Origin: a virus
Lineage: Duplodnaviria > Heunggongvirae > Uroviricota > Caudoviricetes
Strand: one strand, 5' to 3'
DNA: 18,887 nt
IMG/VR virus record: IMGVR_UViG_2778261087_000008
The notes under the pieces: generated by a model
Told to the model about the DNA's origin: nothing
Database searches by the model: none
Seen by the model: only the letters and a program-made list of their open reading frames with translations
Position numbers and translations under genes: made by a program
Part shown: in pieces, positions 5,192 to 18,887 of the stretch
How positions within the stretch are numbered: position 1 is the stretch's first letter
How the letters are laid out: the number at the start of each line of letters is the position of its first letter

Positions 5192-5211
5192 TTAACCACA
5201 GGTAATCAGAG

Positions 5212-5895: not shown

Positions 5896-5921
5896 AACAA
5901 AGGCGACCGGGGGCGGTCGCC
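5890..5921 (-). terminator. Rho-independent terminator for the leftward regulator operon
   Basis: Hairpin ggcgaccg-gggg-cggtcgcc (5902-5921); on the minus strand it is followed by tttgtttta. Confidence 0.5.
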
Positions 5922-5988
5922 AATGGATACACACTAAACTTGAACGCATCACCAACAATGCCACATTTGCGGCTGGTGGGCAATGTGA

Positions 5989-6162
5989 TCAGTCAGATTT
6001 GGTTCGTCCCAAGGTTTGCAACGAGAGCTTTTTCCTGTGCTCTTTAAGGAATTTCTCAAGAGCAAACGAACAAGGTGCGAATCTTTCTGATTCATGCTCT
6101 ATCTTTCTGCGCCGTCTTTTCCGTGCCGGTGATAATGTTTTGGTCAATTCTTTATCGGTCAT
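5989..6162 (-). CDS. Small basic hypothetical protein, second gene of the leftward operon
   Basis: 57 aa from the internal ATG at 6162 (AGGA 7 nt upstream); arginine/lysine-rich (ARKRRRRK); sits between the RHH gene and the terminator. Confidence 0.4.
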   Translation of the reverse strand: MTDKELTKTLSPARKRRRRKIEHESERFAPCSFALEKFLKEHRKKLSLQTLGRTKSD

Positions 6163-6219
6163 TGTGTTGTCCTGCATAGCAATGCGCCGTAGTTACTCAC
6201 ACCACGGCGCTGATAGTGA

Positions 6220-6417
6220 TTATTCTGATTCTTTGGCCTTCCGGCGCTGTTCATATTTTAATTTGCGTCCACAGGCATCTAAGACCCATGCGGAAAAATT
6301 AGCACTAGGATTAGTTAATTTTTCTTGTTCAACGCTGGCATCAATCCCATCTATAAGCTCATGTGGGAATCGAATATTTTTCTTTGCTGATTTGTTGTTT
6401 GTGTTACCGCTAGACAT
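6220..6417 (-). CDS. Ribbon-helix-helix (Arc/Mnt-like) transcriptional repressor
   Basis: 65-aa ORF; segment IRFPHELIDGIDASVEQEKLTNPSANFSAWVLDACGRKL fits the Arc-type RHH pattern; GAGG ribosome-binding site upstream; transcribed divergently from the replication genes across an operator-rich intergenic region. Confidence 0.6.
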   Translation of the reverse strand: MSSGNTNNKSAKKNIRFPHELIDGIDASVEQEKLTNPSANFSAWVLDACGRKLKYEQRRKAKESE

Positions 6418-6445
6418 TGATGCACCTCACTTAAATGGACTTTAT

Positions 6446-6527
6446 GGGCGCACACAATACAGCAAAAAAAATGAGATGTTAAGTATTGACATGTGCGCAC
6501 ACATGATTTTAATCTGTGCGCACAGTT
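6446..6527. promoter_or_regulatory. Divergent promoter/operator region with palindromic TGTGCGCACA sites
   Basis: Perfect 10-bp palindrome tgtgcgcaca at 6492-6501 and 6515-6524, plus a half-site gcgcacaca at 6448-6456; TTGACA hexamer at 6486-6491 directly abuts the first palindrome. Confidence 0.5.
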
Positions 6528-6622
6528 TGAGTTTTGTCACTCAAATTAAGCAACGCCCCGCAGTGCTCGCAACACATGCAGGGCGTCTAACCACCAACGA
6601 TAGCAAGAGTATCGAGGTAGCT

Positions 6623-6826
6623 ATGAGAAATCATACCACACACCCGCAAGGGCGGGACTCGCACAACCTGAATAAATACATCTGGCGTTTTATCGCCCTG
6701 AGCACGGCACAACCGCGCGTGATTACCATTGAGGCCACCAGCGAACAGGAAGCACGCCAGCAATCCCCGGCTGGCTGCGTGATGGTATTCGCCGCCCGTA
6801 TTCGTCAGGGGGTGTGCCATGCCTGA
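6623..6826 (+). CDS. Small hypothetical protein (67 aa), first gene of the rightward operon
   Basis: ATG at 6623 preceded by GAGG; stop overlaps the start region of the next ORF (6819), suggesting translational coupling. It is the 3' portion of the long track ORF 5834..6826, whose upstream part is judged spurious. Confidence 0.4.
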   Translation: MRNHTTHPQGRDSHNLNKYIWRFIALSTAQPRVITIEATSEQEARQQSPAGCVMVFAARIRQGVCHA

Positions 6827-7139
6827 CATGACCAATTACCAGTACCTGATTAATCCGCATTTTAACTGTGAGCATGATATTGCTAAAAAGGTTTATTCCG
6901 CTGCGAATGGGGCTACTGACAATATATCAATGGCTGTTGCGTCAATTGGTAGCCTGATGTGGTATGCGTCAGAAAATGAGGAATATGACGAAAAGGCTAT
7001 GCGCATTGACATGGGGAATATTGGCTTGTTACTGGCAATGCTTGGGCAGTTTGATATTTCGTTACGGTGCACCATTGAAAATGCCACAGATGCATTAAAT
7101 GCCATAAAGAAAGCGAATACTGATTCAAATCGGGGATAA
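6819..7139 (+). CDS. Hypothetical protein (106 aa)
   Basis: ORF with a GGGGG ribosome-binding site 6 nt upstream; AT-rich; no recognisable motif. Confidence 0.55.
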   Translation: MPDMTNYQYLINPHFNCEHDIAKKVYSAANGATDNISMAVASIGSLMWYASENEEYDEKAMRIDMGNIGLLLAMLGQFDISLRCTIENATDALNAIKKANTDSNRG

Positions 7140-7145
7140 ATAATC

Positions 7146-7445
7146 ATGAGAACATATTTATCTGGCTTGACTGCCAGCGGTTATGCACACCCAAAAATTA
7201 TCCCCGGCGCTATTTATCTGGATAAGAACGGTAACAGAGTAACGGTAAAAGAGCTGATGTTTGACCGTGTTTATTTTATTCGTGATGGCTATTCATTTCA
7301 TAGTTCGCTGAACGTGGAGATCTTTATTAGCAGATTCAGGCGGGAAATCCCGCTTTCCAGAAATAACCATGTGTCACGTGTGGATGTAGATAAAAAACTA
7401 CAGGAACTGAAAAACATGATTGCCGCGTGGAGAGAGCAGAAATGA
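7146..7445 (+). CDS. Hypothetical protein (99 aa)
   Basis: ORF with a GGGGA ribosome-binding site; its stop overlaps the primase start (ATGA at 7442-7445). Confidence 0.55.
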   Translation: MRTYLSGLTASGYAHPKIIPGAIYLDKNGNRVTVKELMFDRVYFIRDGYSFHSSLNVEIFISRFRREIPLSRNNHVSRVDVDKKLQELKNMIAAWREQK

Positions 7446-9565
7446 AAAAAGCGCCAAATTTAAAACACCAGCCGCGTGACAAAATGACGGAAGTCATCAT
7501 TTTTGCGGGTAGTAATGCGTGGGCACATGCGAAGCAGTGGCAGGAACAGGACGGGCGACTGGCTGGCGATAACGTGCCTCCTGTCTGGCTTGGAGAGCAA
7601 CAACTTGCCGAACTGGACAACCTGCAAATCGTACCGGACGGACGCTATCGCGTGCGTCTCTATCAGGCGGGGTTATTGCGTCCGGGGCTTGTTAATACCA
7701 TCGGGCAGAAACTGGCAGCGGCAGGTGTCAGGGATGCTGATTATTACCCTGAAGGAATGCACAGCCAGAAACGGGAGAACTGGCGCGAATATCTGGAACG
7801 TGAACGGGCAGAGCAGGCGGAAAAGAAAAAGGTAGTTGAACTGCCTGTAAAGAAAAAAGAGCCATGCTATCAGGATGATGAATTAAAGCCCCGCGTTGAA
7901 AGTCGCGCCGATGGTGTTTTCTGGGTAACGCCCAAAGTGGATAAGCAGTCAGGTGAAATTATCCGGCCTGAGACGTGGTTATGTTCTCCGCTTGAACTAC
8001 TGGGAACGGGGACGATCGGTAAAGAGCATTACCGCGTGATGCGCTGGAAAAAAACCGCAAACCATGAAGTCATCACAATGGCGATCCCGTGTGGTGGTAT
8101 CGGCGACCGTGACGGCTGGCGGTTACTTAAAGATCACGGGCTGAACGTGACAACCAACGGCAAATACAGGGCAATCCTGGCGGACTGGATGCAGTTAAGC
8201 GGAAGCCATGAGGAATGGCAGTTAAGCACAACAACGGGCTGGCATTTTGGCGCGTACATCATGCCGGACGGTTCGATCATTGGTGATTCTGAAAAACCGA
8301 TCCTGTTTACCGGAAAAAGCGCCGCGATTAACGGTTATTCCGTGGCGGGTACGGCGGAGGGCTGGCGCGAGAGTGTGGCGCGGCTGGCTGGCGGTAATGC
8401 CTCAATGATGCTGGGTGTGGCAACGTCACTGGCAGCGCCTTTAATTGGCCTTGTGGGTGCTGACGGCTTCGGGGTGCATCTTTTCGAACAGTCATCGGCA
8501 GGTAAGACCACCACGCAGAACATCGCATCAAGTTTATGGGGAGAGCCGGACGCACAACGGCTTACCTGGTACGGAACGGCGTTAGGTATCGCCAACGAGG
8601 CAGAGGCGCACAACGACGGGCTGTTACCCCTGGATGAAATAGGCCAGGCCGGAAACGCGCGGGAGGTGTCCACGTCAGCCTATACGTTGTTTAACGGCTC
8701 CGGGAAATTACAGGGGGCGAAGGACGGCGGCAACCGGGAGATAAAACACTGGCGCACGGTGGCAATCAGCACCGGAGAAATGGACGTTGAGACATTCCTC
8801 AAAACGGAGGGGATAAAAGTCAAAGCGGGGCAGCTTGTCCGCCTGCTTAACGTTCCGATGGAAAAAGCCACGCAATTTCACGAATACAGCACCGGAAAGG
8901 CGCACGCAGACGCGTTAAAAGATGCCTGGACAGAAAATCACGGGGCGGCGGGTCGTGAATGGGTTAAATGGCTGGCAGACCACCAGCAGGAGGCAAAGGA
9001 TACGGTAAGGGAATGCCGCGAACGGTGGCGCAACCTGATACCGGATAGCTACGGCGAGCAGGTCCACCGCGTGGGGGAACGTTTCGCGATACTGGAGGCT
9101 GCGCTTGTGCTTTCCGGTCATGTAACTGGCTGGGCCGCGCAGGAATGCCGGGACGCAATACAGCATAACTTTAATGCCTGGGTGAAGGAGTTCGGCACGG
9201 GTAATAGGGAATTTAAACAGATGGTTGAACAGGCTGAGGCGTTTTTGTCGTCGTTCGGGTTCAGTCGATACCTTCCTTACCCAAACAGTGATGAGCGTGA
9301 TTTACCGATTAAAGACCTTGCCGGATACAGAAAGGGGAGTATCAGAAATGAAGATGATGAGTTCCGTTTTTACACGTTTCCTCATGTGTTTGAGGGGGAG
9401 ATCGCACAGGGATTTAACCCATCCCACTTTGCCCGCGCGTTGAGTGCTGCCGGAATGCTGGAAGCGGGTAACGATCGCCGTTACAAGAAAAAGGCGCTCG
9501 GCAAAATTGGGGGTAAGCAGCATGTTTTTTACGTGATGATGTTCCAGCCTGAGGCAGAAGATTAA
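7442..9565 (+). CDS. Replication initiator primase-helicase (Pri-Rep type, P4 alpha-like role)
   Basis: About 707 aa from the ATG at 7442 (GGAG 9 nt upstream); Walker A-like FEQSSAGKTTTQ in the central domain; large multidomain protein immediately followed by an iteron cluster. Family assignment by pattern memory, not search. Confidence 0.8.
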   Translation: MKKAPNLKHQPRDKMTEVIIFAGSNAWAHAKQWQEQDGRLAGDNVPPVWLGEQQLAELDNLQIVPDGRYRVRLYQAGLLRPGLVNTIGQKLAAAGVRDADYYPEGMHSQKRENWREYLERERAEQAEKKKVVELPVKKKEPCYQDDELKPRVESRADGVFWVTPKVDKQSGEIIRPETWLCSPLELLGTGTIGKEHYRVMRWKKTANHEVITMAIPCGGIGDRDGWRLLKDHGLNVTTNGKYRAILADWMQLSGSHEEWQLSTTTGWHFGAYIMPDGSIIGDSEKPILFTGKSAAINGYSVAGTAEGWRESVARLAGGNASMMLGVATSLAAPLIGLVGADGFGVHLFEQSSAGKTTTQNIASSLWGEPDAQRLTWYGTALGIANEAEAHNDGLLPLDEIGQAGNAREVSTSAYTLFNGSGKLQGAKDGGNREIKHWRTVAISTGEMDVETFLKTEGIKVKAGQLVRLLNVPMEKATQFHEYSTGKAHADALKDAWTENHGAAGREWVKWLADHQQEAKDTVRECRERWRNLIPDSYGEQVHRVGERFAILEAALVLSGHVTGWAAQECRDAIQHNFNAWVKEFGTGNREFKQMVEQAEAFLSSFGFSRYLPYPNSDERDLPIKDLAGYRKGSIRNEDDEFRFYTFPHVFEGEIAQGFNPSHFARALSAAGMLEAGNDRRYKKKALGKIGGKQHVFYVMMFQPEAED

Positions 9566-9589
9566 CTCCCCTGTGTGAGGTGAAAAGTT

Positions 9590-9711
9590 GCGGGTTATGC
9601 GGGTTATCCTGTGCATAAGTGAATTAACTGCATGAATAAAAAGGAAATCAATAACCCGCACGTAACCCGCAAAACGGCAGTTATAACCCGCAAAAGTGCG
9701 ATTATAACCCG
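9590..9711. repeat. Iteron cluster 1 (candidate replication origin): GCGGGTTAT x2 tandem, AT-rich spacer, ATAACCCGC x4 inverted
   Basis: Forward copies at 9590-9598 and 9599-9607; reverse copies at 9651, 9663, 9683 and 9703 with roughly 10-21 bp phasing; AT-rich segment between them; lies directly downstream of the primase-helicase gene. Confidence 0.65.
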
Positions 9712-9776
9712 CAGAATTTCACCGTAAGGGTGTAAACAAGCGTAACTATCAACGTTAAAACCGGAGAACAGACAGC

Positions 9777-10199
9777 ATGACAGCACAGATAGCAGCTTAC
9801 GGGCGGCTGGTGGCTGCCCCGCAGTTAAAGACCACCAGCAAGGGCACACAAATGGCTATGGCAAGCATGGCGGTCCCCCTGCCGTGCAATCAGGCAGATG
9901 ACGGACAGGCGACGATGTGGTTATCCGTCCTGGCGTTTGGCAGACAGGCCGACGCACTGGCAAAACACCACAAAGGCGAGCTGGTGAGCGTGGCGGGTAA
10001 CATGCAGGTAAGCCAGTGGACAGGCCAGAACGGGGAAACGCGGCAGGGCTGGCAGGTTATCGCAGACAGCGTAATCAGTGCCAGAACGGCGCGACCTGGT
10101 GGCAAAAAAGGCCAGCAGGGCCAGGCTACTGACGCTCTAAATAGGGCTAAGCAACAGGCGGGGAATGATGATCCATATGGGGATAACATACCCTTTTAG
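9777..10199 (+). CDS. Single-stranded DNA-binding protein (SSB-like)
   Basis: 140-aa ORF; N-terminal OB-fold-like pattern (IAAYGRL..., W..VLAFG...W); Gly/Gln-rich linker; C-terminal acidic tail ending DNIPF, like the DDDIPF tail of bacterial SSB. Confidence 0.75.
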   Translation: MTAQIAAYGRLVAAPQLKTTSKGTQMAMASMAVPLPCNQADDGQATMWLSVLAFGRQADALAKHHKGELVSVAGNMQVSQWTGQNGETRQGWQVIADSVISARTARPGGKKGQQGQATDALNRAKQQAGNDDPYGDNIPF

Positions 10200-10216
10200 C
10201 GATAACAGGGGGATAC

Positions 10217-10465
10217 ATGCCAGTGACATTTGAAGAAGTTCAGCAACATAAAAAGTTTCATGGTATTGATGATCTGGAAACCACGACAGCAAAAAAATAT
10301 CGCCGTCTGCTTTCTTCCGATGCGTTATTTGTTGTGGATCATCATGATTTTCTGCGCAGCTCACTGACCGGGGAAATTTTCGCAACCAACCGTGAGCAGG
10401 TGGAAGCGATGATCGAATATCTGTGGAAAATAAGACGCAGAATGCGGGATTCCATGAAACAGTAA
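10217..10465 (+). CDS. Hypothetical protein (82 aa)
   Basis: ORF 17 bp downstream of the SSB-like gene, followed by a terminator; no motif recognised. Confidence 0.5.
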   Translation: MPVTFEEVQQHKKFHGIDDLETTTAKKYRRLLSSDALFVVDHHDFLRSSLTGEIFATNREQVEAMIEYLWKIRRRMRDSMKQ

Positions 10466-10476
10466 AGCGATAAAGG

Positions 10477-10501
10477 CCCGGATTTTTCCGGGTTTTCTTT
10501 T
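10477..10501 (+). terminator. Rho-independent terminator ending the replication module
   Basis: cccgga-tttt-tccggg hairpin followed by ttttctttt. Confidence 0.6.
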
Positions 10502-10738
10502 CAGGTTTTGTAAATTATTTGTTCGTGGTTGTTTCTGGCTGTTCAGTGATTCTGGCTGATATTTACATACTGATTTTTATGTATATGTTGGCGTGTGGCA
10601 CTCAGACGTGAGCCGCCACAATGCCGCCTGACCCCCTGCGCGATGCCGGGTTGATCTGCGAGATGCCGAGAGTGTCGGGCGGCGCTCCCTCCGTGTTGGT
10701 TTCACGTCCTGAATCTTAACCAATACGAGAAAACCTTC

Positions 10739-11908
10739 ATGAAGAAATTAATCGAACTCCGCCAGCAAAAAAACGCCCTGAAAAACCAGATGCGATCCCT
10801 GCTGGAAAAAGCCGACAGTGAAAACCGTAGTCTGAACGCTGAAGAAGGCAAACAGTTTGATGAACTGCGTGCAAAAGCTGATGCCCTCGACACAGAAATT
10901 TCCCGCCTCGAGTCTGTGGCTGATGAAGAACGCAGCAAGCCAGGAACGGGCATCCAGAAATTATCATCTGATGAATTGCGTAACTACATCGTAACCGGAG
11001 ATGTGCGATCACTGTCCACCAGCACTGACAGCGGCAGGGATGGCGGATATACCGTAATTCCTGAGCTTGATCGCGAAGTCATGCGCCAGCTACAGGATGA
11101 CAGTGTTATGCGCGTGATCGCGACCGTGAAGACCGCAAAATCAAATGAGTTTCAGAAACTGGTTTCCACTGGCGGCGCAACTGTAGGACGAGGCACAGAA
11201 GGCAGCGCACGCAGTGAAACCAACACCCCGAAAATTGAACGCGTAACCATCAAGCTGAATCCGATCTACGCCTACCCGAAAACCACGCAGGAAATCCTGG
11301 ATTTTTCAGAGGTGGATATTCTGGGCTGGTTATCCTCCGAAATTGCCGACACGTTCGCCAGCACCGAAGAGGATGATTTTGTTAATGGCGACGGTAACGG
11401 CAAGCCGAAAGGCTTCATGGCTTACACCCGTGCGGCGACCAGTGACAAAACCCGCGCTTTTGGCACCATTGAAAAAATAGTAGCGGCAAGTGGAACCGCC
11501 ATTACAGCGGACGAACTGATCGACATTCTCTACAAGCTGAAAGCGAAATACCGCAAAAATGCCGTCTGGGTGATGAACTCGGGCACGGCAGGGACACTAC
11601 AGAAGCTGAAAAATGAGAACGGCGATTATATCTGGCGCGACAGCCTTAAAGAAGGTGCGCCGGATATGTTGCTTGGTCGTCCTGTTTACTGCCTGGAGTC
11701 CATGCCGGACATCGGCGCAGGAAAAGCACCGCTAGCGGTTGGCGATTTCAGTCGTGGTTATTTCATCGTTGATCATGTAACAGGGATTCGCACCCGACCG
11801 GACAACATTACTGAACCCGGATTCTACAAGGTCCACACGGATAAATATCTGGGCGGTGGTGTGGTGGATTCAAACGCCATCAAAATTCTGGAAATGAAAG
11901 CTGGCTAG
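10739..11908 (+). CDS. Phage major capsid protein, HK97 family, with N-terminal coiled-coil delta (scaffold-like) domain
   Basis: 389-aa ORF; charged, heptad-like N-terminal 70 residues; remainder typical in length and composition for HK97-fold capsid proteins; adjacent to prohead protease and portal genes. Confidence 0.88.
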   Translation: MKKLIELRQQKNALKNQMRSLLEKADSENRSLNAEEGKQFDELRAKADALDTEISRLESVADEERSKPGTGIQKLSSDELRNYIVTGDVRSLSTSTDSGRDGGYTVIPELDREVMRQLQDDSVMRVIATVKTAKSNEFQKLVSTGGATVGRGTEGSARSETNTPKIERVTIKLNPIYAYPKTTQEILDFSEVDILGWLSSEIADTFASTEEDDFVNGDGNGKPKGFMAYTRAATSDKTRAFGTIEKIVAASGTAITADELIDILYKLKAKYRKNAVWVMNSGTAGTLQKLKNENGDYIWRDSLKEGAPDMLLGRPVYCLESMPDIGAGKAPLAVGDFSRGYFIVDHVTGIRTRPDNITEPGFYKVHTDKYLGGGVVDSNAIKILEMKAG

Positions 11909-11921
11909 TCATGAGTAAGGA

Positions 11922-11942
11922 GGAGGCTGCGGCCTCCTTTTT
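11922..11942 (+). terminator. Hairpin plus T-run immediately after the capsid gene (candidate partial terminator)
   Basis: ggaggc-tgcg-gcctcc followed by ttttt; sits 14 bp after the capsid stop. Confidence 0.45.
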
Positions 11943-11962
11943 CAGCTTTATGGAGTACACCG

Positions 11963-12523
11963 ATGAAAAACACCGATTTTGAAATCCGCACATCTGAACT
12001 GACCGCCAGCAATAAAAAGCTGGTGGGGTATGCCGTTCGCTGGAACAGCCTTTCAGAAATTATCTGGGACGAATTCCGCGAACAGTTCACGCCGGGGGCT
12101 TTTGCTGACTATCTGGCGGCGGGTAATGATGTGCGCTGCCTGTATGAGCATGACTATACCCAACTGCTGGGGCGCACCAAATCCGGCACTCTGGTACTGA
12201 CTGAGGATAACACCGGGTTACGTTTTGAACTGACACCGCCGGATACCCAGCTTGGAAAAGATGTGCTTACGCTGGTGGAGCGTGGCGACATTACAGGAAT
12301 GAGCTTTGGTTTTCGCGCATTATGCGAGGAGTGGAGTATCGCGCAAAAACCGTATTTGCGTACCGTAACCGCCGCTGAACTCCGTGAAATCACAATAACG
12401 TCGATGCCTGCTTATCCAGAATCTGGCGTGGAGATTGCCCACCGTTCGTTGTTTGCACAGCACCCTGAATTATGCCCGACAGGAAATAATCGTCATCGCT
12501 GGTCTGAGCTGGCGGGGTTGTGA
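11963..12523 (+). CDS. Phage prohead (head maturation) protease, HK97 family
   Basis: 186-aa ORF with the characteristic motifs EHDYTQLLGR and GMSFGF of the HK97 prohead protease family. Confidence 0.88.
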   Translation: MKNTDFEIRTSELTASNKKLVGYAVRWNSLSEIIWDEFREQFTPGAFADYLAAGNDVRCLYEHDYTQLLGRTKSGTLVLTEDNTGLRFELTPPDTQLGKDVLTLVERGDITGMSFGFRALCEEWSIAQKPYLRTVTAAELREITITSMPAYPESGVEIAHRSLFAQHPELCPTGNNRHRWSELAGL

Positions 12524-12524
12524 T

Positions 12525-13739
12525 ATGTGGTGGCCTTTTAGTCGTAAAAAAAGCGAGCAGCGTAACCTGTCCATTGATGATTTTCTGGCGCTGTCCGGCG
12601 TACCGAATACCGGATCCGGAGAATATGTTTCTGCCGGGACGGCTGAATCATTGCCTGCAGTGATGAATGCGGTTTCTGTCATCGCTGAGGCGGTGGCCAC
12701 GATGCCGTGTTATCTGTATCTGGTACGTAATGACAAGGGAAGGGAGGCGCGGGAATGGCTGGACAGTCACCCGGTAGATATTCTGCTGAATGAGCAGCCT
12801 AATTCGTGCCAGACACCTTACCAGTTTAAACGCACAATGATGCGTCACTGCCTGCTGAACGGTAACGCCTATGCGGTTATTGAGTGGGGGCAGGACGGGC
12901 AGCCAAAATCACTTCATCCTTATGCGCCGGGGTGTGTTGTACCGGAACGCACAGGCGCACACAAATACCGCTATACCATCACCGAACCCTATACAGGAAC
13001 GGTGCGCACGTATTTACAGGAAGAAGTTCTGCATCTCCGCTATGCCTCGGATGATGGCTTTCTGGGGCGCTCCCCCGTCACGATTTGCCGTGAGGCACTT
13101 GGGCTTGGCCTTGCTCAACAGCGCCACGGAGCCAGCATTATGAAAGATGGCATGATGGCGGCAGGGATTATCACGTCAGGCGAATGGCTGGACGGCGTGA
13201 AAGGTAAACAGGCATTGGATGCTCTGGAACGCTACAAGGGGGCGAAAAATGCCGGAAAAACGCCAATCCTTGAAGGGGGCATGGATTACAGGCAACTGGG
13301 AATGAGTAACCAGGATGCGGAATGGCTGGCCTCCCGTCGCTTCTCCATTGAAGACATCGCCCGCATGTTCAACGTATCGCCTATTTTTCTGCAGGAATAC
13401 AGCAACAGCACCTACAGCAATTTCAGCGAGGCAAGCCGCGCGTTTCTGACCATGACAATGCGCCCGTGGCTGGCGAACTTCGAACAGCAAATCAAGGCCG
13501 CTTTGCTGGTGGCTTCTCCCGTACCTGGTACCCGTTATCTGGTTGAGTTTGATTCAGCCGATTTATTACGCGCCACACCCACCGAACGTTATGCCACGTA
13601 TGAGAAAGGGATTAAGAACGGGATCATGAATCCGAACGAAGCCCGTGAGCGTGAGGGTATGCCGCCGCGTGAAGGTGGTGATGAGTTCAGCCAGGCATGG
13701 AAACAGACTGTGGAAATTAAAGGGAGAAAAGATGAGTGA
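12525..13739 (+). CDS. Phage portal protein, HK97 family
   Basis: About 404 aa from the ATG at 12525, 1 nt after the protease stop; size and position fit a portal. The track ORF 12435..13739 starts earlier and overlaps the protease gene. Confidence 0.85.
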   Translation: MWWPFSRKKSEQRNLSIDDFLALSGVPNTGSGEYVSAGTAESLPAVMNAVSVIAEAVATMPCYLYLVRNDKGREAREWLDSHPVDILLNEQPNSCQTPYQFKRTMMRHCLLNGNAYAVIEWGQDGQPKSLHPYAPGCVVPERTGAHKYRYTITEPYTGTVRTYLQEEVLHLRYASDDGFLGRSPVTICREALGLGLAQQRHGASIMKDGMMAAGIITSGEWLDGVKGKQALDALERYKGAKNAGKTPILEGGMDYRQLGMSNQDAEWLASRRFSIEDIARMFNVSPIFLQEYSNSTYSNFSEASRAFLTMTMRPWLANFEQQIKAALLVASPVPGTRYLVEFDSADLLRATPTERYATYEKGIKNGIMNPNEAREREGMPPREGGDEFSQAWKQTVEIKGRKDE

Positions 13740-14034
13740 AGCCAGAATTACACCTGATGAAGTCAGGGCACATCTTCGACTTGATGATGATTTATCCGGT
13801 GAAGGCGAACTTCTGAAAATGTATACCGATGCGGCGCTGGAAGCCTGCCAGAAGCATATCGGGAAACGTTTTGAAGACGGGCTGGAATTTACCCCGGCAA
13901 TGCGTGTTGGTTGCCTGATGTACATCGCTTTCCTGTACGAGAACCGGGAAGCGGTTTCACCAGTGGAGCACTCGGAACTGCCTATGGCTATTTCTGCGCT
14001 CTGGTCAGTTTATCGTGACGTAGGGGTGTACTGA
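13732..14034 (+). CDS. Phage head-tail connector (gp6-like) protein
   Basis: 100 aa from the ATG at 13732, overlapping the portal stop; N-terminal ITPDEVRAHLRLDDD matches the family pattern (..EVK.HLRID.D). Confidence 0.75.
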   Translation: MSEARITPDEVRAHLRLDDDLSGEGELLKMYTDAALEACQKHIGKRFEDGLEFTPAMRVGCLMYIAFLYENREAVSPVEHSELPMAISALWSVYRDVGVY

Positions 14035-14474
14035 TGCCGTGGCAACCATTAAGGCGATGCACTGAGCCTGGCTGTAATAAGCGCGTGAAGTCCGGCAAGT
14101 GTGAAGAGCACAGGCGGGCTGCATGGCGTGCAGAGGATGCCAGACGGGGACACCGCCGCGCGCGCGGGTATTCCCGACAGTGGGACAAATACCGCGCCCT
14201 GTACCTGAGCAAAAACCCGTTATGCGTGCGTTGTCTGGCTAAGGGGATTTATACGCCAGCTCTTGTGGTGGATCACATCATTCCCATCAATGGCGGCGGT
14301 GATGTTCTCTTCTGGCCTGAGTGGAATCACCAGGCATTGTGCCAGACGTGCCACAACCGTAAGACGACACGGGAAGATCCAGCCACGAAAGCAAACCGTA
14401 AAGCGGGCATGTATCGCGAGCAGGAAGAACGGGCGGCACACCGTAACGACTGGATGTATGGCGATGATGACTGA
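14034..14474 (+). CDS. HNH endonuclease (packaging-associated)
   Basis: 146-aa ORF with Cys-rich N-terminus and HNH motif DHIIPI...NHQALCQTCHNRKT; located directly upstream of the terminase genes. Confidence 0.85.
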   Translation: MPWQPLRRCTEPGCNKRVKSGKCEEHRRAAWRAEDARRGHRRARGYSRQWDKYRALYLSKNPLCVRCLAKGIYTPALVVDHIIPINGGGDVLFWPEWNHQALCQTCHNRKTTREDPATKANRKAGMYREQEERAAHRNDWMYGDDD

Positions 14475-14643
14475 ACAGGAGCAAACCAGGCTGATACGTG
14501 GACTGATAAGGCAGCGTGACACATGGAAGACACAGGAGACAGAGCACAAAGCCAACAGGACAGGGCGCACAAAACGCACCACAGCGAAGCGATTAACCGA
14601 CCGTGACCGCGAGGTCATGGAATGTTTTCGCAATCGCTGGTGA
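14458..14643 (+). CDS. Small basic hypothetical protein (61 aa), uncertain
   Basis: ORF overlapping the HNH 3' end in another frame; arginine/lysine-rich; no clear ribosome-binding site. Confidence 0.3.
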   Translation: MAMMTEQEQTRLIRGLIRQRDTWKTQETEHKANRTGRTKRTTAKRLTDRDREVMECFRNRW

Positions 14644-14651
14644 GGCCGTCA

Positions 14652-14711
14652 GAGGGGGTGGGGGTGGTTTTCAGGACGAAACCGTCCCTGCCGGACACCG
14701 ACCGCCCCCTC
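14652..14711. promoter_or_regulatory. G-rich nested inverted repeats upstream of terS (candidate cos / terminase recognition site)
   Basis: gagggggtgggggtgg ... ggacgaaaccgtcc ... ccccctc: outer arms GAGGGGG/CCCCCTC and inner arms ggacg/cgtcc, followed by an AT-rich tract (aatttttttgaaaataatt) before the terS ATG. Confidence 0.3.
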
Positions 14712-14762
14712 AAATTTTTGTGCACGGGAATTTTTTTGAAAATAATTGGGCGAAAAAAGAAC

Positions 14763-15119
14763 ATGGCAAGACCACCAAAAGCCCCCGCTTACCTGGATGA
14801 AATCGCGGTCAGGCAGTGGAAGGAAAAATCGCGCCAGCTTTCCGGGCGGGAAGACCTTACCCCCGCCGACTGGAGCAATCTGGAACTGTATTGTGTTAAC
14901 TACTCCATATACCGCAAAGCCGTCGAAGACCTTGCGACGCGCGGGTTCAGCATTGTTAACAGTCAGGGCAGCGAGAGCAGAAACCCCGCCCTGAGCGCAA
15001 AGGCTGACGCAGAAAGAATAATGATCAAAATGGCTTCTTTGCTGGGTTTTGACCCGGTAAGCCGCCGCAGAAATCCACCGGAAACAGAGGAAGAGGACGA
15101 GCTTGACCGCCTGGCATGA
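14763..15119 (+). CDS. Terminase small subunit (P27-family-like)
   Basis: 118 aa from the ATG at 14763 (MARPPKAPAYL...); acidic C-terminus; position immediately upstream of TerL. The track ORF begins at 14622 within the G-rich region. Confidence 0.78.
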   Translation: MARPPKAPAYLDEIAVRQWKEKSRQLSGREDLTPADWSNLELYCVNYSIYRKAVEDLATRGFSIVNSQGSESRNPALSAKADAERIMIKMASLLGFDPVSRRRNPPETEEEDELDRLA

Positions 15120-16764
15120 GTACGCAGAAGGCGTAAAAAACGGCAAAATTACGGCCTGTAAACGACTGAAACAGGCCGTTAAACGGTATTTTTCTGACCT
15201 TGAAAACCCCCTTTACACGTTCGATCCGGAGGTCGTGGAGCGGTTTATTGCCTTTTCCAGGGTGTGTCCGCACGTAAAAGGCGCAATGCGCGGTAGCCCC
15301 ATTGAGCTGGAGCCGTGGCAGCAGTTCGCCTTTGCGTGCATCCTGGGCTTTAAGGTTAAGGCCACCGGACGGCGCAAATACACCAGCGCATTCATTGAAG
15401 TACCGCGAAAAAATGCCAAATCCACGGTCGCCGCTATCCTGGCTAACTGGTTTCTGGTTATGGAAAACGGGCAGCAGGATATTTACACCGCCGCCGTGAG
15501 TCGTGATCAGGCGCGGATCGTGTTTGATGATGCGCGTCAGATGTGCCTTTTATCCCGACCGTTACGAAAGCGGGTAAATATTCAGGCACACAAGGTGATA
15601 CACCCGAAAACCAACAGCCTGTTAAAGCCACTGGCAGCAAAAGCGGCAACCATTGAAGGTACAAATCCGAGTCTTGCCATTGTGGATGAATATCACCTGC
15701 ACCCTGACAACGGGGTTTATTCCGCACTTGAGCTGGGGATGGGGGCGCGTCCGGAGGGGCTGTTATTTGCCATCACCACATCGGGGAGCAACGTTGTTTC
15801 AGCCTGTAAACAACACTATGACTATTGCTGTCAGATACTGGATGGTGAAGAGATGAACGAATCCATGTTCGTTCTGATTTACGAGCTGGATGATGAAAGC
15901 GAGGTTGACGATCCGGCGATGTGGATAAAGGCGAATCCAAATATCGATGTTTCCGTCGATCGTGAAAAACTGGCCTCAACCATCCAGAAAGCGCGGGGTA
16001 TTCCGTCGCAGTGGGTGGAAATGCTCACCAAGCGATTCAATATCTGGTGTCAGGGGGCTACGCCGTGGATGGGTAACGGTGCATGGGCGGAGTGCGCCGG
16101 AACGTTCGCGGAGGCGGATTTATACGGGCAGGAGTGCTACGCGGGGCTGGACTTATCATCAACCAGCGATATTTCCAGCGTGTGCTATGCCTTTCCGGTC
16201 GGTAAAAAGATTATGCTGGTTTCCCGTCACTATCTGCCGGAATTTCAGCTACAGAACCCCGCCAATAAAAACCGCGCCATCTATCGCCAGTGGGTAAAGG
16301 CGGGCTGGATACGCACAACACCGGGTGACTGCATTGATTATGACCGTATCCGTGATGACATCATGGCGGATGCAGAGAATTTCAATATCAGGCTGGTGGG
16401 CTTTGATACGTGGAACGCCACGCACCTGAGAACGCAGTTACAGGGGGCAGGCTTTGAGGTGGAGCCGTTCCCGCAAACCTACCTTCGTTTCAGTCCGGCG
16501 GCGAAATCGTTCGAGGTTTTTGTTAACCGGAAGGTGATTGTGCATCGTGGTGATCCGGTGCTGGCCTGGTCAATGAGTAATGTTGTGATGCAGAGTGACG
16601 CGAACGCCAATATCAAGCCGAACAAGAAAAAATCATCCAACAAGATAGACCCGAGCGTTGCGGCGCTGATGGCGTTTGGCACATTCCAGGCTGAGCATGA
16701 GGAATTTGCATTTGATATGAGCGACAGCCAGAAAGAGCGACTAGCGGCATTTGATGGGGTATGA
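15103..16764 (+). CDS. Terminase large subunit
   Basis: 553-aa ORF; ATPase region with Walker A-like VPRKNAKST and Walker B-like LAIVDEYH; apparent TTG start at 15103 (GAGGA 5 nt upstream) overlapping the terS 3' end by 17 nt. Confidence 0.88.
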   Translation: MTAWHEYAEGVKNGKITACKRLKQAVKRYFSDLENPLYTFDPEVVERFIAFSRVCPHVKGAMRGSPIELEPWQQFAFACILGFKVKATGRRKYTSAFIEVPRKNAKSTVAAILANWFLVMENGQQDIYTAAVSRDQARIVFDDARQMCLLSRPLRKRVNIQAHKVIHPKTNSLLKPLAAKAATIEGTNPSLAIVDEYHLHPDNGVYSALELGMGARPEGLLFAITTSGSNVVSACKQHYDYCCQILDGEEMNESMFVLIYELDDESEVDDPAMWIKANPNIDVSVDREKLASTIQKARGIPSQWVEMLTKRFNIWCQGATPWMGNGAWAECAGTFAEADLYGQECYAGLDLSSTSDISSVCYAFPVGKKIMLVSRHYLPEFQLQNPANKNRAIYRQWVKAGWIRTTPGDCIDYDRIRDDIMADAENFNIRLVGFDTWNATHLRTQLQGAGFEVEPFPQTYLRFSPAAKSFEVFVNRKVIVHRGDPVLAWSMSNVVMQSDANANIKPNKKKSSNKIDPSVAALMAFGTFQAEHEEFAFDMSDSQKERLAAFDGV

Positions 16765-17054
16765 CGAGAATGACTGAAACCGATCTACTAAAAATAATTC
16801 GCTGCGTTACCGGAGTCTGCCAGGCAACAGGCAAACCGGAGGCCAAGCAGCCGGATACCGTCACCGCTGAAAATTACGCGCGTGTGGTGGCTAAGGTGAT
16901 GCGCCGTGACGGTATTGAGCTTAACGGCGTGGATATGCGCAACATACGAACCAGAGTCCTTGAGTTGCTGGCATACCGTCGCCGTTCTCAACAACGGAGG
17001 GAGAGCGCGAAAAATAATTACCAGTGGAAGAAGCCGGAACGGTTGCGGCGGTAG
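16761..17054 (+). CDS. Hypothetical protein (97 aa), basic C-terminus
   Basis: ATG overlaps the terL stop (ATGA at 16761-16764); last ORF of the island; no motif recognised. Confidence 0.5.
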   Translation: MTRMTETDLLKIIRCVTGVCQATGKPEAKQPDTVTAENYARVVAKVMRRDGIELNGVDMRNIRTRVLELLAYRRRSQQRRESAKNNYQWKKPERLRR

Positions 17055-17055
17055 A

Positions 17056-17093
17056 TTCCTGATATTCAGGAAAACCACGAATCTGTGGGTTTT
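17056..17093 (+). terminator. Two tandem hairpins after the last island gene (candidate terminator)
   Basis: ttcctga-tat-tcaggaa (17056-17072) then aaaaccac-gaatct-gtgggtttt (17071-17092) with an A-tract before and T-tract after. Confidence 0.35.
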
Positions 17094-17393
17094 ACTGGCG
17101 CGGTTACGGCGGTGACACGCACCGAGGCAGAACAATTACCGTAGGTTAAAGCGACAGTATTCACACCAAAGGCAGAAATTAGCGGTTAACGTAACTGACT
17201 GATATTTTCAGGAACAGCCAACGGCTGAGGCCGGAGCTATAAGAATAGCTTTGGGTACAGTCCTCAGTTTTGAGGGATGTTAACCAACTGAATAATAAGC
17301 AAACCTCAAAATTGAGTTTTGTATCTGCCTGAGTTATTTCTGTGCTAACTTGTTGATATTCCAGACGGCCCAAAAATGGGTTGGCTGGTGGGT

Positions 17394-17511
17394 GAGTTGC
17401 AGATTTGCAACTCGACCATGAAACTACGGAAACTACCCGTAGTTTGGGTAGTAAGAGCAACACCCAGATTTTGGGGCTTACTCGCGATCCCCAAATAAAG
17501 GGGATCGGTGG
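17394..17511. repeat. 118-bp hairpin-dense repeat, copy 1
   Basis: Matches 17828-17945 at 113 of 118 positions; contains hairpins gagttgca-gatt-tgcaactc, aaactacgg-aaactac-ccgtagttt (overlapping the alternative ctaccc-gtagttt-gggtag) and gatcccc-aaataaa-ggggatc. Confidence 0.8.
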
Positions 17512-17541
17512 CATCACTGGCCCCACTTTCCTGATGTGTTT

Positions 17542-17693
17542 GCGGGTTATTTGGGAGAGGTTGCGGGTTATTTTGAATGACTTGCGGGTTACGATTTGGC
17601 TAACATTTGAACATGTCATTTTTCAACGCATTGATATTAAATAATAAAAAATACTTAGCACGCGAAGATAACCCGCTAACCCGCATAACCCGC
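17542..17693. repeat. Iteron cluster 2: GCGGGTTA(T) x3 phased at 21 bp, AT-rich spacer, ATAACCCGC x3 tandem inverted
   Basis: Forward copies at 17542, 17563 and 17584; AT-rich 17600-17665; reverse copies at 17668-17693. Same motif and architecture as cluster 1 at 9590-9711. Confidence 0.6.
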
Positions 17694-17827
17694 ACTGTTT
17701 TGTATATATATACGAAAAATTGCATTCAGGAGGGGTAGCAAAATCCCTACCGTCTCTTATCTCTTGGAGTGCCCGCCTCTTCGAATTTTAACCCCCGTGA
17801 AATTACAAAATTTCCCTGACTGATGGC

Positions 17828-17945
17828 GAGTTGCAGATTTGCAACTCGACTATGAAACTACGGAAACTACCCGTAGTTTGGGTAGTAAGAGTAACACCCA
17901 GATTTTGGGGCTTACTTGCGATACCCAAATACAGGGGATCGGTGG
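17828..17945. repeat. 118-bp hairpin-dense repeat, copy 2
   Basis: About 96% identical to 17394-17511; the five mismatches include taa to tac at the position of the copy-1 mini-ORF stop. Confidence 0.8.
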
Positions 17946-18262
17946 AAGAAATATCGTTTCTCATATGTGAGTACCGAGGGCGGAATTCCGCCTTCGGTTA
18001 CTTATTGTGCTCATGCACAGGGAGGGGCGGGTCAAATCTCTGTACCCTGACGTCTTCCGGACTGCCCGCTCCATCGATTTTTTATACCCGCGAAAAATGC
18101 TTCACGCTGGTGGGCATGATGCGTGGGGATGCTGATAATGGGTTATTGTGGGATAGATGTCTCATACAATAAGAGATTCATAATTTGCTTTTTAATACTG
18201 TTATACTCGCCGCCTTTCTACCGTGCTCATGCTTTCGCATATTTTCGGCTTTGTGCAATAAT

Positions 18263-18286
18263 CCGTATATCACTCGGTGTATCACT
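18263..18286 (+). repeat. Repeat ccgtatatcact + cggtgtatcact, candidate integrase arm-type binding sites (right arm)
   Basis: Shares 19 consecutive bp (tatcactcggtgtatcact) with 2747-2765; 64 bp upstream of the attR core. Confidence 0.5.
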
Positions 18287-18350
18287 TTTAGCTAAAATGC
18301 ATGGCGTGTTTGTTAATTTAACTGATTAAAATCAGTGGGATATAAAGTTT

Positions 18351-18369
18351 ATGAAACATATTGTAGAAG
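18351..18369 (+). repeat. attR core (first 19 nt of hpt)
   Basis: atgaaacatattgtagaag; direct repeat of 2597-2615 with one mismatch. Confidence 0.7.
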
Positions 18370-18887
18370 TAATGATCCCCGAAGCGGAGATTAAAGCGCG
18401 TATCGCCGAACTGGGTCGTCAGATTACTGAGCGTTACAAAGACAGCGGCAGCGATATGGTGCTGGTTGGTCTGCTGCGTGGCTCATTTATGTTTATGGCG
18501 GACCTGTGCCGTGAAGTTCAGGTATCTCATGAAGTCGACTTTATGACCGCCTCCAGCTACGGTAGCGGCATGTCCACCACCCGTGATGTGAAAATCCTCA
18601 AAGATCTGGATGAAGATATCCGTGGCAAGGACGTGCTGATTGTTGAAGATATCATCGACTCGGGGAATACACTGTCGAAAGTGCGTGAGATCTTAAGCCT
18701 GCGCGAACCGAAGTCGCTGGCGATTTGTACGCTGCTGGATAAACCGTCCCGTCGTGAAGTGAACGTCCCGGTTGAATTTATCGGTTTCTCGATCCCGGAT
18801 GAGTTTGTGGTGGGTTACGGCATTGATTACGCACAGCGTTACCGTCATCTGCCGTATATCGGCAAAGTGATTCTGCTGGACGAGTAA
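18351..18887 (+). CDS. hpt: Hypoxanthine phosphoribosyltransferase
   Basis: 178-aa [25 protein letters not shown]... with PRPP-binding motif [14 protein letters not shown]; complete, ends taa at 18885-18887. Confidence 0.93.

What the first reader, a model, noticed from the sequence alone, without database searches (positions are those of the whole stretch)
17055..18350. 1.3 kb non-coding right end built from two degenerate tandem units
The right end has no credible ORF. It appears to consist of two units, each a 118-bp hairpin repeat followed by a variable insert and then a G-rich module ending in a T-run. The modules are caggaggggtagc...ggagtgcccgcctcttcgaatttta (about 17727-17789) and cagggaggggcggg...ggactgcccgctccatcgatttttta (about 18017-18083). 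The insert is iteron cluster 2 in unit 1 and a perfect 14-bp palindrome ggcggaattccgcc (17978-17991) in unit 2. Possible readings are two tandem small-RNA genes, a duplicated cis-acting packaging or replication site, or the decayed end of a second tandemly integrated element.
Basis: seen in the sequence. Interest (0 to 1): 0.5.

Follow-up and report, generated by a model that had tools for sequence, protein, structure and literature searches.

The report
Tandem phage-type cos cassettes in satellite
The non-coding right end of this E. coli phage satellite (a capsid-forming PICI inserted at hpt) is not a pair of small-RNA genes. It holds two tandem copies of a phage DNA-packaging (cos) cassette, one of them carrying an extra copy of the island's replication-origin repeats, which is a new variation on a known satellite trick.

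Summary
A 121-bp multi-hairpin repeat occurs twice (17391-17511 and 17825-17945, 95% identical), and each copy is followed by an insert and a G-rich module.

The G-rich modules are cos sites of the phiP27/SfV phage family, which is HK97-like and HNH-dependent. cos2 (18012-18100) is about 90% identical to the cos of SfII, ST64B and 720R4. Its 10-mer TGCCCGCTCC aligns with the cohesive end TGCCCGCCCC determined experimentally for SfI. cos1 (17727-17800) is a diverged variant whose closest relatives have a phiP27-like right half.

A third site, cos0 (about 14650-14740), sits in the canonical position between HNH and TerS and is probably the island's own.

The insert in unit 1 is an inverted copy of the island's replication-origin iteron architecture.

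Related islands carry either cassette alone. The double form occurs in 15 of 5426 E. coli genomes, in every sampled case inside a capsid-forming PICI, and at two or more integration sites.

The 121-bp element always follows a conserved 97-aa ORF. It is strongly structured, and its function remains unresolved.

Two cos sites in one PICI have a precedent in EcCICFT073 (lambda-type cos), so this is a new variant of a known kind.

The parts
16761..17054 (+). 97-aa ORF (phrog_1561, function unknown). It is the last gene of the packaging operon and the constant upstream partner of the 121-bp element.
   Evidence: PHROG hit at 2e-46 with no Pfam or PDB match. An ORF97 match lies upstream of the element in every sampled locus whose held sequence extends that far (56 of the 58 loci listed). 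866 homologues were found; those that carry a name are nearly all from E. coli and Shigella, with single E. albertii and Salmonella entries, and all are called hypothetical or prophage protein.
17055..17390 (.). Spacer made of 3-4 degenerate units (TAACnnnyTGATATTyyC plus a short hairpin). It contains an exact IHF consensus at 17346-17358 (- strand) and a Chi site at 17384-17391.
   Evidence: Repeats D11 and D15; IHF pattern; Chi. The 291-bp block 17055-17345 is optional: present in L002 and L016, absent in L001 and L017.
17391..17511 (.). 121-bp multi-hairpin element, copy 1
   Evidence: z = -5.7.
17540..17694 (.). Iteron cluster 2. It has 3 TGCGGGTTA at 21-bp spacing, a 77-bp AT-rich spacer with an IHF consensus at 17624-17636, and 3 inverted iterons. 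It is colinear with the reverse complement of the canonical ori at 9589-9713.
17727..17800 (+). cos1, a diverged phiP27-like ('type B') cos module. The predicted cohesive-end 10-mer is TGCCCGCCTC at 17770-17779.
   Evidence: Alignments A1 and A2. It shares 61-62 of 85 positions with the L003/L004 type-B cos. Its right half shares 24 of 31 with phiP27, and its 10-mer 9 of 10 with SfII.
17825..17945 (.). 121-bp multi-hairpin element, copy 2
   Evidence: z = -6.7 on the + strand, -7.1 on the - strand.
17946..18011 (.). Small hairpin plus a long imperfect palindrome (core ggcggaattccgcc at 17979-17992). It is the constant partner of the type-A cos.
   Evidence: I15; z = -5.3. It is 98-100% conserved in most type-A islands, including L001, L002 and L016-L018.
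18012..18100 (+). cos2, an SfV/SfII/ST64B-type ('type A') cos module. The predicted cohesive-end 10-mer is TGCCCGCTCC at 18063-18072. The G-rich left arm is an inverted repeat of the 10-mer.
   Evidence: It is 91-95% identical over 80 bp to the cos region of five named phages: 720R4, SKA5, SfII, 689R6 and ST64B. It shares 76 of 85 positions with 720R4. The SfI record ends at window 18072, and the SfI cohesive end TGCCCGCCCC was determined from virion DNA (PMC3636060).
18106..18113 (+). Chi site conserved just 3' of the right-end cos (cttcacGCTGGTGGgc)
   Evidence: conserved in L001-L004.
18123..18349 (.). Presumed P arm of attP. It holds a tandem GTGTATCACT pair (18268-18286, repeated at 2747-2765, probably Int arm-type sites) and a promoter-like site upstream of hpt.
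18350..18372 (+). att core, which is the hpt 5' end and is repeated at 2596-2618. Island-free E. coli genomes match the window only from 18350 onward.
   Evidence: (D6).
14650..14740 (+). cos0, a third cos-like module in the canonical HNH-cos-TerS position. The predicted 10-mer is CGACCGCCCC at 14699-14708. It is probably the cognate site of the island's own terminase.
   Evidence: 9 of 10 with the phiP27 10-mer. It is 82-99% conserved in every sampled cf-PICI locus whose sequence reaches that far, whatever the right end looks like. It folds as an inverted repeat with z = -3.7.
9589..9713 (.). Canonical ori (iteron cluster 1), immediately 3' of the DUF927 pri-rep gene. It uses the same 9-mer as cluster 2.

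Best explanation
The 1.3-kb right end is the cis-acting DNA end of a capsid-forming PICI. It is built from two tandem 'right-end cassettes' that occur singly in other E. coli PICIs.

Unit 2 is hp121, a palindrome and cos2. It is the common 'type A' cassette, and its cos is an SfV/SfII/ST64B-type cohesive-end site.

Unit 1 is hp121, iterons and cos1. It joins the same hairpin element to a 'type B' cassette, which is an ori-like iteron/AT-rich block directly followed by a phiP27-like cos variant.

Shown: homology of both G-rich modules to phage cos, including the 10-nt cohesive-end sequence. The same orientation as a third cos (cos0) between the island's HNH and TerS genes. Identity of the iterons with the island's ori.

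Inferred: cos0 is cut by the island's own HNH/TerS/TerL. cos2, and less certainly cos1, are cut by terminases of SfV-like and P27-like helper phages. The island could then also be packaged by helper machinery, as classical cos-PICIs are.

Also inferred: the double form arose by recombination between islands through the shared ORF97/hp121 region. It can collapse to the single form by recombination between the two 121-bp repeats.

The 121-bp element is a conserved structured partner of the 97-aa ORF. It is probably a protein-binding DNA site or an mRNA 3'-end structure, and it is not itself the cos.
For: cos homology. cos2 matches the cos regions of five named SfV-like phages (720R4, SKA5, SfII, 689R6, ST64B) at 91-95% (E down to 7e-27) and phiP27 at 82% under its annotated 'cos-site'. 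The SfV and SfIV records start, and the SfI record ends, inside the module. The SfI cohesive end 5'-TGCCCGCCCC-3' was determined by sequencing virion DNA (PMC3636060). It aligns with 18063-18072 and 17770-17779 at 9 of 10 each. In these phages the module lies between HNH and TerS.

Third site. The island has just such a module between its HNH and TerS genes.

Cassettes occur singly. Type A alone is seen in L001, L002, L016 and L017. Type B alone is seen in L003 and L004. Type B's right half matches phiP27 at 29-30 of 31 positions.

Double form. L016 is the same hpt island with one unit and is otherwise 99-100% identical. The double junction is in 15 of 5426 genomes. It is also present in L018 at tRNA-Ile and in four IMG/VR contigs (three complete, one truncated). 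All of these are cf-PICIs.

cos0 versus the right end. cos0 is conserved in every sampled cf-PICI whose sequence reaches that far, while the right-end cos is absent, single or double.

Iterons. They are the same 9-mer as the ori after pri-rep, with colinear architecture in inverted orientation and an IHF consensus in the AT-rich spacer.

Precedent. EcCICFT073 has two functional lambda-type cos sites with different cosB (PMC6092414, PMC6739421).
Against: No cleavage or packaging data exist for this island, so functionality of cos1 and cos2 is inferred.

cos1 is diverged. It has only 24 of 31 right-half positions in common with phiP27, a weak inverted repeat (z = -0.2) and no close phage match. 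It may be a relic.

Seven sampled cf-PICI loci lack any recognisable right-end cos, although contig ends were not checked for each. One (L015) has a 10-mer diverged to CGCTCACCAC. The right-end cos is therefore dispensable for cf-PICIs and may be decaying baggage.

Three cos sites in one orientation could produce sub-genomic or non-cohesive molecules if one terminase cut them all.

In L067 the right-end iterons do not match the resident ori iterons. The iteron block therefore travels as part of the cassette and need not be a working ori.

The role of hp121 is not established. Type-B cos exists without it, and hp121 exists without any recognisable downstream cos.
Confidence: 0.7

Rival explanations
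1. The right-end cos modules are non-functional relics in this island. cf-PICIs descend from, or recombine with, classical cos-PICIs and drag the ORF97/hp121/cos cassette along. Only cos0 is used. The tandem form is a neutral recombination product.
For: Right-end cos content varies among sampled cf-PICIs: none in 7 loci, single in 5, double in 6 (one of them truncated). cos0 is constant wherever the sequence reaches it. L015 has a diverged 10-mer. cos1 has no phage counterpart. The double form is rare, at 15 of 5426 genomes.
Against: cos2 is 100% identical among hpt islands (L016, L017) and about 90% identical to live phage cos, including 9 of 10 positions of the 10-mer. The double junction is conserved at 97-100% in islands at different att sites, despite 121-bp direct repeats that should delete it easily.
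Confidence: 0.25
2. The units encode small RNAs. The 121-nt multi-hairpin element, alone or with the palindrome, would be a 3'-UTR-derived or independent sRNA or structured RNA that acts on the helper phage or on island gene expression.
For: Very strong predicted structure on both strands (z = -5.7 to -7.1). The element always lies downstream of the last gene of the operon. The palindrome scores as terminator-like on the + strand. One stem pair shows a C-G to U-A exchange.
Against: No Rfam family matches at E <= 1. No promoter is shared by the two copies, whose 5' flanks differ, and promoter-like sites are no more frequent than in shuffles. Among 28 distinct full-length variants, only one pair has a two-sided change, and the most divergent variant (L012) breaks hairpin 3. 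Symmetric inverted repeats fit DNA-level protein binding equally well. The G-rich/T-run modules are cos, not terminators.
Confidence: 0.12
3. Unit 1 is primarily a second replication origin, and the cos-like sequence next to it is incidental. The island would replicate from two inverted oris, or the block would recruit Rep proteins of co-resident islands.
For: There are six copies of the resident ori 9-mer, with the same architecture as the ori after pri-rep and an IHF consensus in the AT-rich centre.
Against: The same block sits in L067, whose own ori uses different iterons (GTCTACC) and whose primase differs beyond the N-terminus. The block is always fused to a cos module (L003, L004, L018).
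Confidence: 0.2
4. The region is the remnant of a second island integrated in tandem at hpt, or a decayed coding region.
For: The two units have different ancestries, since the cassettes are found singly elsewhere.
Against: There is no third copy of either att repeat. An identical double junction occurs in an island at tRNA-Ile (L018). No ORF has a Pfam match, and relatives show no annotated gene there.
Confidence: 0.03

Closest known systems
cos sites of the SfV / SfI / SfII / SfIV / ST64B and phiP27 phages (HK97-like, HNH-dependent cos packaging)
   Same: The sequence is homologous over about 85 bp. This covers the G-rich left arm, the 10-nt cohesive-end sequence (TGCCCGCCCC in SfI, CGCCCGCCCC in phiP27), the T-run and ACCCGCGAAA. 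Orientation relative to the packaging genes is the same.
   Different: In the phages the site lies between HNH and TerS. cos1 and cos2 lie after the last gene, next to attP, with hp121 plus a palindrome or iterons on their left side. Only cos0 is in the phage-like position. The 10-mers differ by 1 nt. cos1's left half resembles no phage.
EcCICFT073, a classical E. coli PICI with two cos sites (cos1, cos2) and Rpp (Fillol-Salom 2018, 2019)
   Same: It is a satellite carrying two helper-type cos sites with different flanking (cosB) regions. Both are functional in plasmid-transfer assays, and only one is essential. [quoted passage not shown]
   Different: Its sites are lambda/phi80-type cosN and its helper TerS is redirected by Rpp. 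Here the cos family is P27/SfV. The island has its own HNH/TerS/TerL and a third cos. ORF97 has no detectable similarity to any PDB chain, so none to the deposited Rpp structures if they are in that copy.
cf-PICIs (EcCIEDL933 prototype; Alqurainy et al. 2022/2023)
   Same: The island has int, pri-rep, ori, major capsid, protease, portal, adaptor, HNH, TerS and TerL in about 15.7 kb.
   Different: The papers read here do not map a cf-PICI cos or describe extra helper-type cos sites.
SaPI/PICI iteron origins (two iteron sets flanking an AT-rich region, 3' of the rep gene)
   Same: Cluster 2 has this architecture and uses the resident iteron.
   Different: It lies about 8 kb from the rep gene, is inverted, and is fused to a cos module. 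In another island the same block is foreign to the resident ori.

Membership tests
phiP27/SfV-type cos site | 10-nt cohesive-end sequence homologous to TGCCCGCCCC / CGCCCGCCCC | tested here: met
   cos2 is TGCCCGCTCC and cos1 is TGCCCGCCTC, each 9 of 10 against SfII. cos0 is CGACCGCCCC, 9 of 10 against phiP27. The SfI end sequence comes from PMC3636060.
phiP27/SfV-type cos site | Conserved flanks: a G-rich inverted-repeat arm on the left and T-run + ACCCGCGAAA on the right | tested here: met
   There are 21 invariant columns across 11 island and phage sequences. cos2 shares 41 of 44 left and 26 of 31 right positions with 720R4. cos1 is weaker, at 20 of 44 and 19 of 31.
phiP27/SfV-type cos site | Position between the HNH endonuclease gene and terS | tested here: not met
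   This feature is met only by cos0. cos1 and cos2 lie downstream of terL and ORF97, next to attP.
phiP27/SfV-type cos site | Staggered cleavage by terminase/HNH that produces the virion DNA ends | not testable with these tools
   It needs end-mapping of packaged DNA.
PICI/SaPI iteron replication origin | Two sets of iterons flanking an AT-rich region, identical to those bound by the resident Rep | tested here: met
   TGCGGGTTA occurs 3 + 3 times around a 77-bp AT-rich spacer. The same 9-mer makes up the cluster after pri-rep.
PICI/SaPI iteron replication origin | Location immediately 3' of the rep gene, and Rep-dependent replication | tested here: not met
   The location feature is not met, because cluster 2 is 8 kb from pri-rep. 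Replication cannot be tested here. In L067 the same block coexists with a different resident ori.
Bacterial small RNA gene | Own promoter, intrinsic terminator, covariation-supported structure or a known family | tested here: inconclusive
   No Rfam hit and no promoter excess. The structure is strong, but only one compensated pair is seen among 28 variants. For the G-rich modules specifically the test is not met (z = -0.2 and -1.1).
Capsid-forming PICI (context of the region) | Integrase, pri-rep and ori plus a complete capsid and packaging module (MCP, protease, portal, adaptor, HNH, TerS, TerL) in about 15 kb without tail genes | tested here: met
   Pfam and PHROG assignments. The att core repeats at 2596-2618 and 18350-18372 bound about 15.7 kb.
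PICI with two helper-type cos sites (EcCICFT073-like) | Two cos sites with a shared cosN type but different flanking specificity regions | tested here: met
   cos1 and cos2 share 8 of 10 positions of the 10-mer but only 17 of 31 on the right and 20 of 44 on the left. The cos family differs from EcCICFT073's lambda type.

The most novel reading that the evidence does not exclude
This cf-PICI is a multi-route satellite. It would keep its own cos0 for packaging into self-made capsids. It would also keep two helper-specific cos sites, one SfV-like and one P27-like, so that terminases of two different helper families can package it too. Separately, ORF97 together with the 121-bp hairpin element would form a previously undescribed satellite-specific module, analogous to Rpp, that directs or protects packaging at these ends.
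Probability: 0.2. Interest if true: 0.65.

Novelty: new variant of a known kind. Interest (0 to 1): 0.45.

Why it matters
Satellites that carry helper-type cos sites are known, and so is one PICI with two cos sites. Why some PICIs keep two different cos sites is stated as an open question (PMC6739421).

Here a capsid-forming PICI, thought to package itself exclusively with its own terminase, carries its own cos and up to two further cos sites. One of these resembles the cos of the SfV phage family and the relatives of the other resemble that of phiP27. Natural single, double and cos-less variants exist in sequenced genomes.

That gives a ready-made comparative series to test three questions. 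Can cf-PICIs also use helper packaging? How is cos specificity partitioned? What does the widespread ORF97/121-bp module (present in about 13% of complete E. coli genomes) do?

For annotation, it shows that these 'empty' island ends are cos, ori and att DNA rather than decayed genes or sRNA loci.

Tried and rejected
- Rfam at E <= 1 over the whole window gave nothing, and there are no tRNA or tmRNA genes.
- Pfam on all five mechanical ORFs of the region gave nothing.
- The promoter scan found no excess over shuffles. The terminator scan flagged only the palindrome and internal cos hairpins.
- cos0 and cos1 searched against the phage collection gave no informative phage match.
- The scan of 185,579 species-representative genomes for ORF97 relatives found nothing by tblastn. 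A scan for an hp121 DNA pattern gave 0 hits, so no divergent homologues were available for covariation.
- RNAalifold and pair counting on 28 distinct hp121 variants showed too little variation to separate RNA from DNA-level structure.
- ORF97 has no PDB sequence match. Its AlphaFold model is low-confidence (pLDDT 65, three helices), so no fold search was run.
- I first took the 19-bp repeat TATCACTCGGTGTATCACT as the att core. I revised this after island-free genomes were found to match only from 18350. The core is the hpt 5' end, and the 19-mers are probably arm-type sites.
- The tandem-integration reading was rejected because there is no third att copy and the same junction occurs at another att site.
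Full report
CONTEXT. The window is an E. coli chromosomal segment. It holds an 802-aa ORF on the minus strand at the left end (1-2409; from position I take it to be gcd, not tested), a mobile island of about 15.7 kb, and hpt (18351-18887).

Pfam and PHROG assign the island genes as follows:
- a tyrosine integrase (2788-4011);
- a DUF927 primase-helicase (7427-9565);
- SSB, then major capsid (10739), prohead protease (11963), portal (12435) and head-tail adaptor (13645);
- an HNH endonuclease (14034-14474), TerS and TerL (15103-16764);
- a 97-aa ORF of unknown function, phrog_1561 (16761-17054).

There are no tail genes. This is the gene set of a capsid-forming PICI (cf-PICI; 10.1101/2022.09.08.507074).

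Island-free E. coli genomes match the window only from 18350 onward (5413 of 5425 records). A 23-bp copy of the hpt start lies at 2596-2618 (D6). The att core is therefore the hpt 5' end. The 19-bp repeat at 2747-2765 and 18268-18286 is more likely an arm-type Int site.

OBSERVATION.
- A 121-nt repeat lies at 17391-17511 and 17825-17945. The copies are 95% identical and 434 bp apart.
- Each copy folds into four hairpins far better than shuffles, with z = -5.7 and -6.7 on the + strand and -7.1 on the - strand.
- Unit 1 continues with six TGCGGGTTA iterons around an AT-rich spacer and a G-rich module.
- The mechanical ORFs have no Pfam match. RefSeq annotates nothing there in identical or related genomes.

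WHAT THE G-RICH MODULES ARE. A blastn search of the region against 50,697 phage records hit only with the second module. The matches were 91-95% identical over 80 bp in five named phages (vB_EcoM-720R4, SKA5, SfII, 689R6 and ST64B). phiP27 matched at 82%, under a feature annotated 'cos-site'.

The linear records of SfV and SfIV start inside the module, and that of SfI ends inside it. For SfI, the cohesive end was determined by sequencing virion DNA ends as the 10-mer 5'-TGCCCGCCCC-3' (PMC3636060). phiP27 annotates CGCCCGCCCC.

In alignments of island and phage sequences, this 10-mer aligns as follows:
- with 18063-18072 (TGCCCGCTCC) in module 2, hereafter cos2;
- with 17770-17779 (TGCCCGCCTC) in module 1, hereafter cos1.

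Twenty-one columns are invariant across all 11 sequences. They include the G-run, the core of the 10-mer, the T-run and C.CG.GAA.

The 'G-rich' part is the left arm of an inverted repeat whose right arm is the cohesive-end sequence. The 'T-run' is a conserved part of the cos right side. As RNA, the modules do not fold better than shuffles (z = -0.2 and -1.1), and no Rfam family matches. They are cos sites, not sRNA terminators.

A THIRD COS. In these phages, cos lies between HNH and TerS. The island has a homologous module in just that position, at about 14650-14740. It is upstream of what I take to be the real TerS start (ATG at 14764, by comparison with the 357-bp terS annotated in L013). 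Its 10-mer CGACCGCCCC (14699-14708) shares 9 of 10 positions with phiP27.

The island's TerS and TerL are 32% and 30% identical to those of phiP27. This cos0 is conserved at 82-99% in every sampled cf-PICI locus whose sequence reaches that far. I infer that it is the cognate site of the island's own terminase. All three cos modules have the same orientation.

WHERE THE TWO UNITS COME FROM. Related islands carry each cassette singly.
- Type A is ORF97, hp121, palindrome and cos2. It is seen in islands at clpS (L001), tRNA-Ile (L002) and hpt (L016, L017), among others.
- Type B is an iteron block followed directly by a cos, without hp121. It is seen in L003 and L004.
- Type A cos is SfV-like, sharing 76 of 85 positions with 720R4.
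- Type B's right half is almost identical to phiP27 (29-30 of 31). The window's cos1 is a diverged type B, sharing 61-62 of 85 positions with L003/L004 and 24 of 31 with phiP27 on the right.

L016 is the same hpt island with one unit and is otherwise 99-100% identical. That state is what recombination between the two 121-bp repeats would produce, or it is the state before gain.

The cos1-to-hp121 junction is present in 15 of 5426 complete E. coli genomes. It is also in an island at tRNA-Ile (L018) and in four IMG/VR contigs, three complete and one truncated. In my sample of 59 loci, all six double forms are in cf-PICIs. Among sampled cf-PICIs, seven have no recognisable right-end cos, five have type A and six have the double form. 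L015 has a type-A-like cos whose 10-mer has drifted to CGCTCACCAC.

No third copy of either att repeat exists. A local tandem integration at hpt is therefore not the origin.

THE ITERON BLOCK. The 9-mer is the same as in the cluster immediately 3' of pri-rep (9589-9713). Cluster 2 aligns colinearly with the reverse complement of cluster 1: 21-bp-spaced iterons, an AT-rich region, then tightly spaced inverted iterons.

One of only two exact IHF consensus matches in the whole window lies in its AT-rich centre (17624-17636). The other lies 33 bp before hp121 copy 1. The block therefore looks like a second, inverted ori that the resident Rep should bind.

The same block also sits at the right end of an island (L067) whose own ori uses GTCTACC iterons and whose primase differs beyond the N-terminus. 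It travels as part of the type-B cassette and need not be a working ori everywhere.

THE 121-BP ELEMENT. It occurs in 703 of 5426 E. coli genomes. It was absent from 185,579 species-representative genomes when scanned with an exact pattern. In every sampled locus with enough upstream sequence, it follows an ORF97 homologue.

It occurs with type A cos, with no recognisable cos (L013, L014), and truncated at hairpin 3. Type B cos occurs without it. It is therefore not an obligatory part of cos.

Variation is small. Among 28 distinct full-length variants, one stem pair shows C-G to U-A with a mismatch intermediate. The most divergent variant keeps hairpins 1 and 4 but breaks hairpin 3. This does not separate an RNA structure from symmetric protein-binding DNA.

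The ORF97 model is a low-confidence three-helix protein (pLDDT 65) with no PDB or Pfam relative.

My best guess is that hp121 is the DNA target of a protein, such as ORF97, TerS or IHF, on the side of cos that is packaged last. The alternative is a structured 3' end of the late mRNA. This part remains unexplained.

MECHANISM (shown versus inferred).
- Shown: sequence homology to phage cos, including the experimentally defined cohesive end. Three cos modules in one orientation. Cassette modularity. Iteron identity.
- Inferred: the island's own HNH/TerS/TerL use cos0. cos2 can be cut by SfV-like helper terminases, and cos1 possibly by P27-like ones. This is the classical 'carry the helper's cos' strategy of P4, SaPIbov5 and EcCICFT073.
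- Also inferred: the double form arose by inter-island recombination through ORF97/hp121. The differing 10-mers and flanks keep the three sites from being mixed by one terminase.

The main rival is that the right-end sites are relics in cf-PICIs.

COMPARISON AND NOVELTY. The closest precedent is EcCICFT073, which has two functional lambda-type cos sites with different cosB. [quoted passage not shown] The cf-PICI papers I read do not map a cos or mention extra ones.

This is therefore a new variant of a known kind, with a P27/SfV-type cos family. In the double form, a self-packaging satellite carries three cos sites, one of them fused to an ori-like block.

Interest is moderate. The finding is explained in outline. 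It offers a natural allelic series for an open question. It also exposes a widespread ORF97/hp121 module of unknown function.

Noticed in passing
window 14650-14740: A third cos-like module lies between the HNH gene and TerS, with predicted 10-mer CGACCGCCCC at 14699-14708. The ORF list's TerS start at 14622 is probably too early. The likely ATG is at 14764, and a small annotated ORF overlaps 14470-14643 in relatives.
   Followed up: yes
window 3040-18113: Chi (GCTGGTGG) occurs 13 times, all inside the island (9 on the + strand, 4 on the - strand). Shuffles give 0.63 on average and at most 3. Two of the sites flank the cos cassettes (17384-17391 and 18106-18113), and the second is conserved in other islands. 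This may protect linear or rolling-circle island DNA from RecBCD.
   Followed up: partly
window 2596-2618 and 18350-18372; 2747-2765 and 18268-18286: The island is bounded by a 23-bp repeat of the hpt start codon region (91% identical). Island-free genomes match only from 18350. The island therefore supplies the sequence upstream of hpt, including a promoter-like site at 18234-18262. The perfect 19-bp inner repeat (two GTGTATCACT units) is probably an Int arm-type site, and analogous tandem units occur at the ends of islands at other att sites (L001, L013, L014).
   Followed up: partly
window 17055-17390; also L013 2740-3000 and L014 2740-3000: Between ORF97 and hp121 there are 1-4 degenerate units of about 40-140 bp (TAACnnnyTGATATTyyC plus a short hairpin with an AAWTT loop). 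The copy number varies between islands. The reverse complement of the motif fits the IHF consensus WATCAANNNNTTR (exact at 17346-17358).
   Followed up: partly
L067 5200-5490 versus L067 274-427 (E. coli MS 200-1 island at clpS): This island's ori after its primase gene uses GTCTACC iterons (10 or more copies). Its right-end cassette nevertheless carries the TGCGGGTTA iteron block, so the iteron-plus-cos cassette moves between islands with different replication specificities.
   Followed up: partly
L006 4230-4370 (O157:H7 strain 3-5-1) and L012 3160-4170: In these genomes a PICI right end (ORF97, hp121, palindrome) abuts a truncated lambda-like prophage (partial terminase gpA or partial major capsid gene) where a cos would be expected. 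This suggests deletions or recombination near cos.
   Followed up: no
hit H97, E. coli CFS3292 (NZ_CP026935.2 4125410-4129032): An otherwise identical copy of the double right end appears to be interrupted by an ISApl1-family IS30-like element.
   Followed up: no
L025 and L054 (IMG/VR contigs): A TGCGGGTTA-type iteron block (78-83% identical to cluster 2) lies upstream of ORF97 rather than downstream of hp121. This is another placement of the same block.
   Followed up: no
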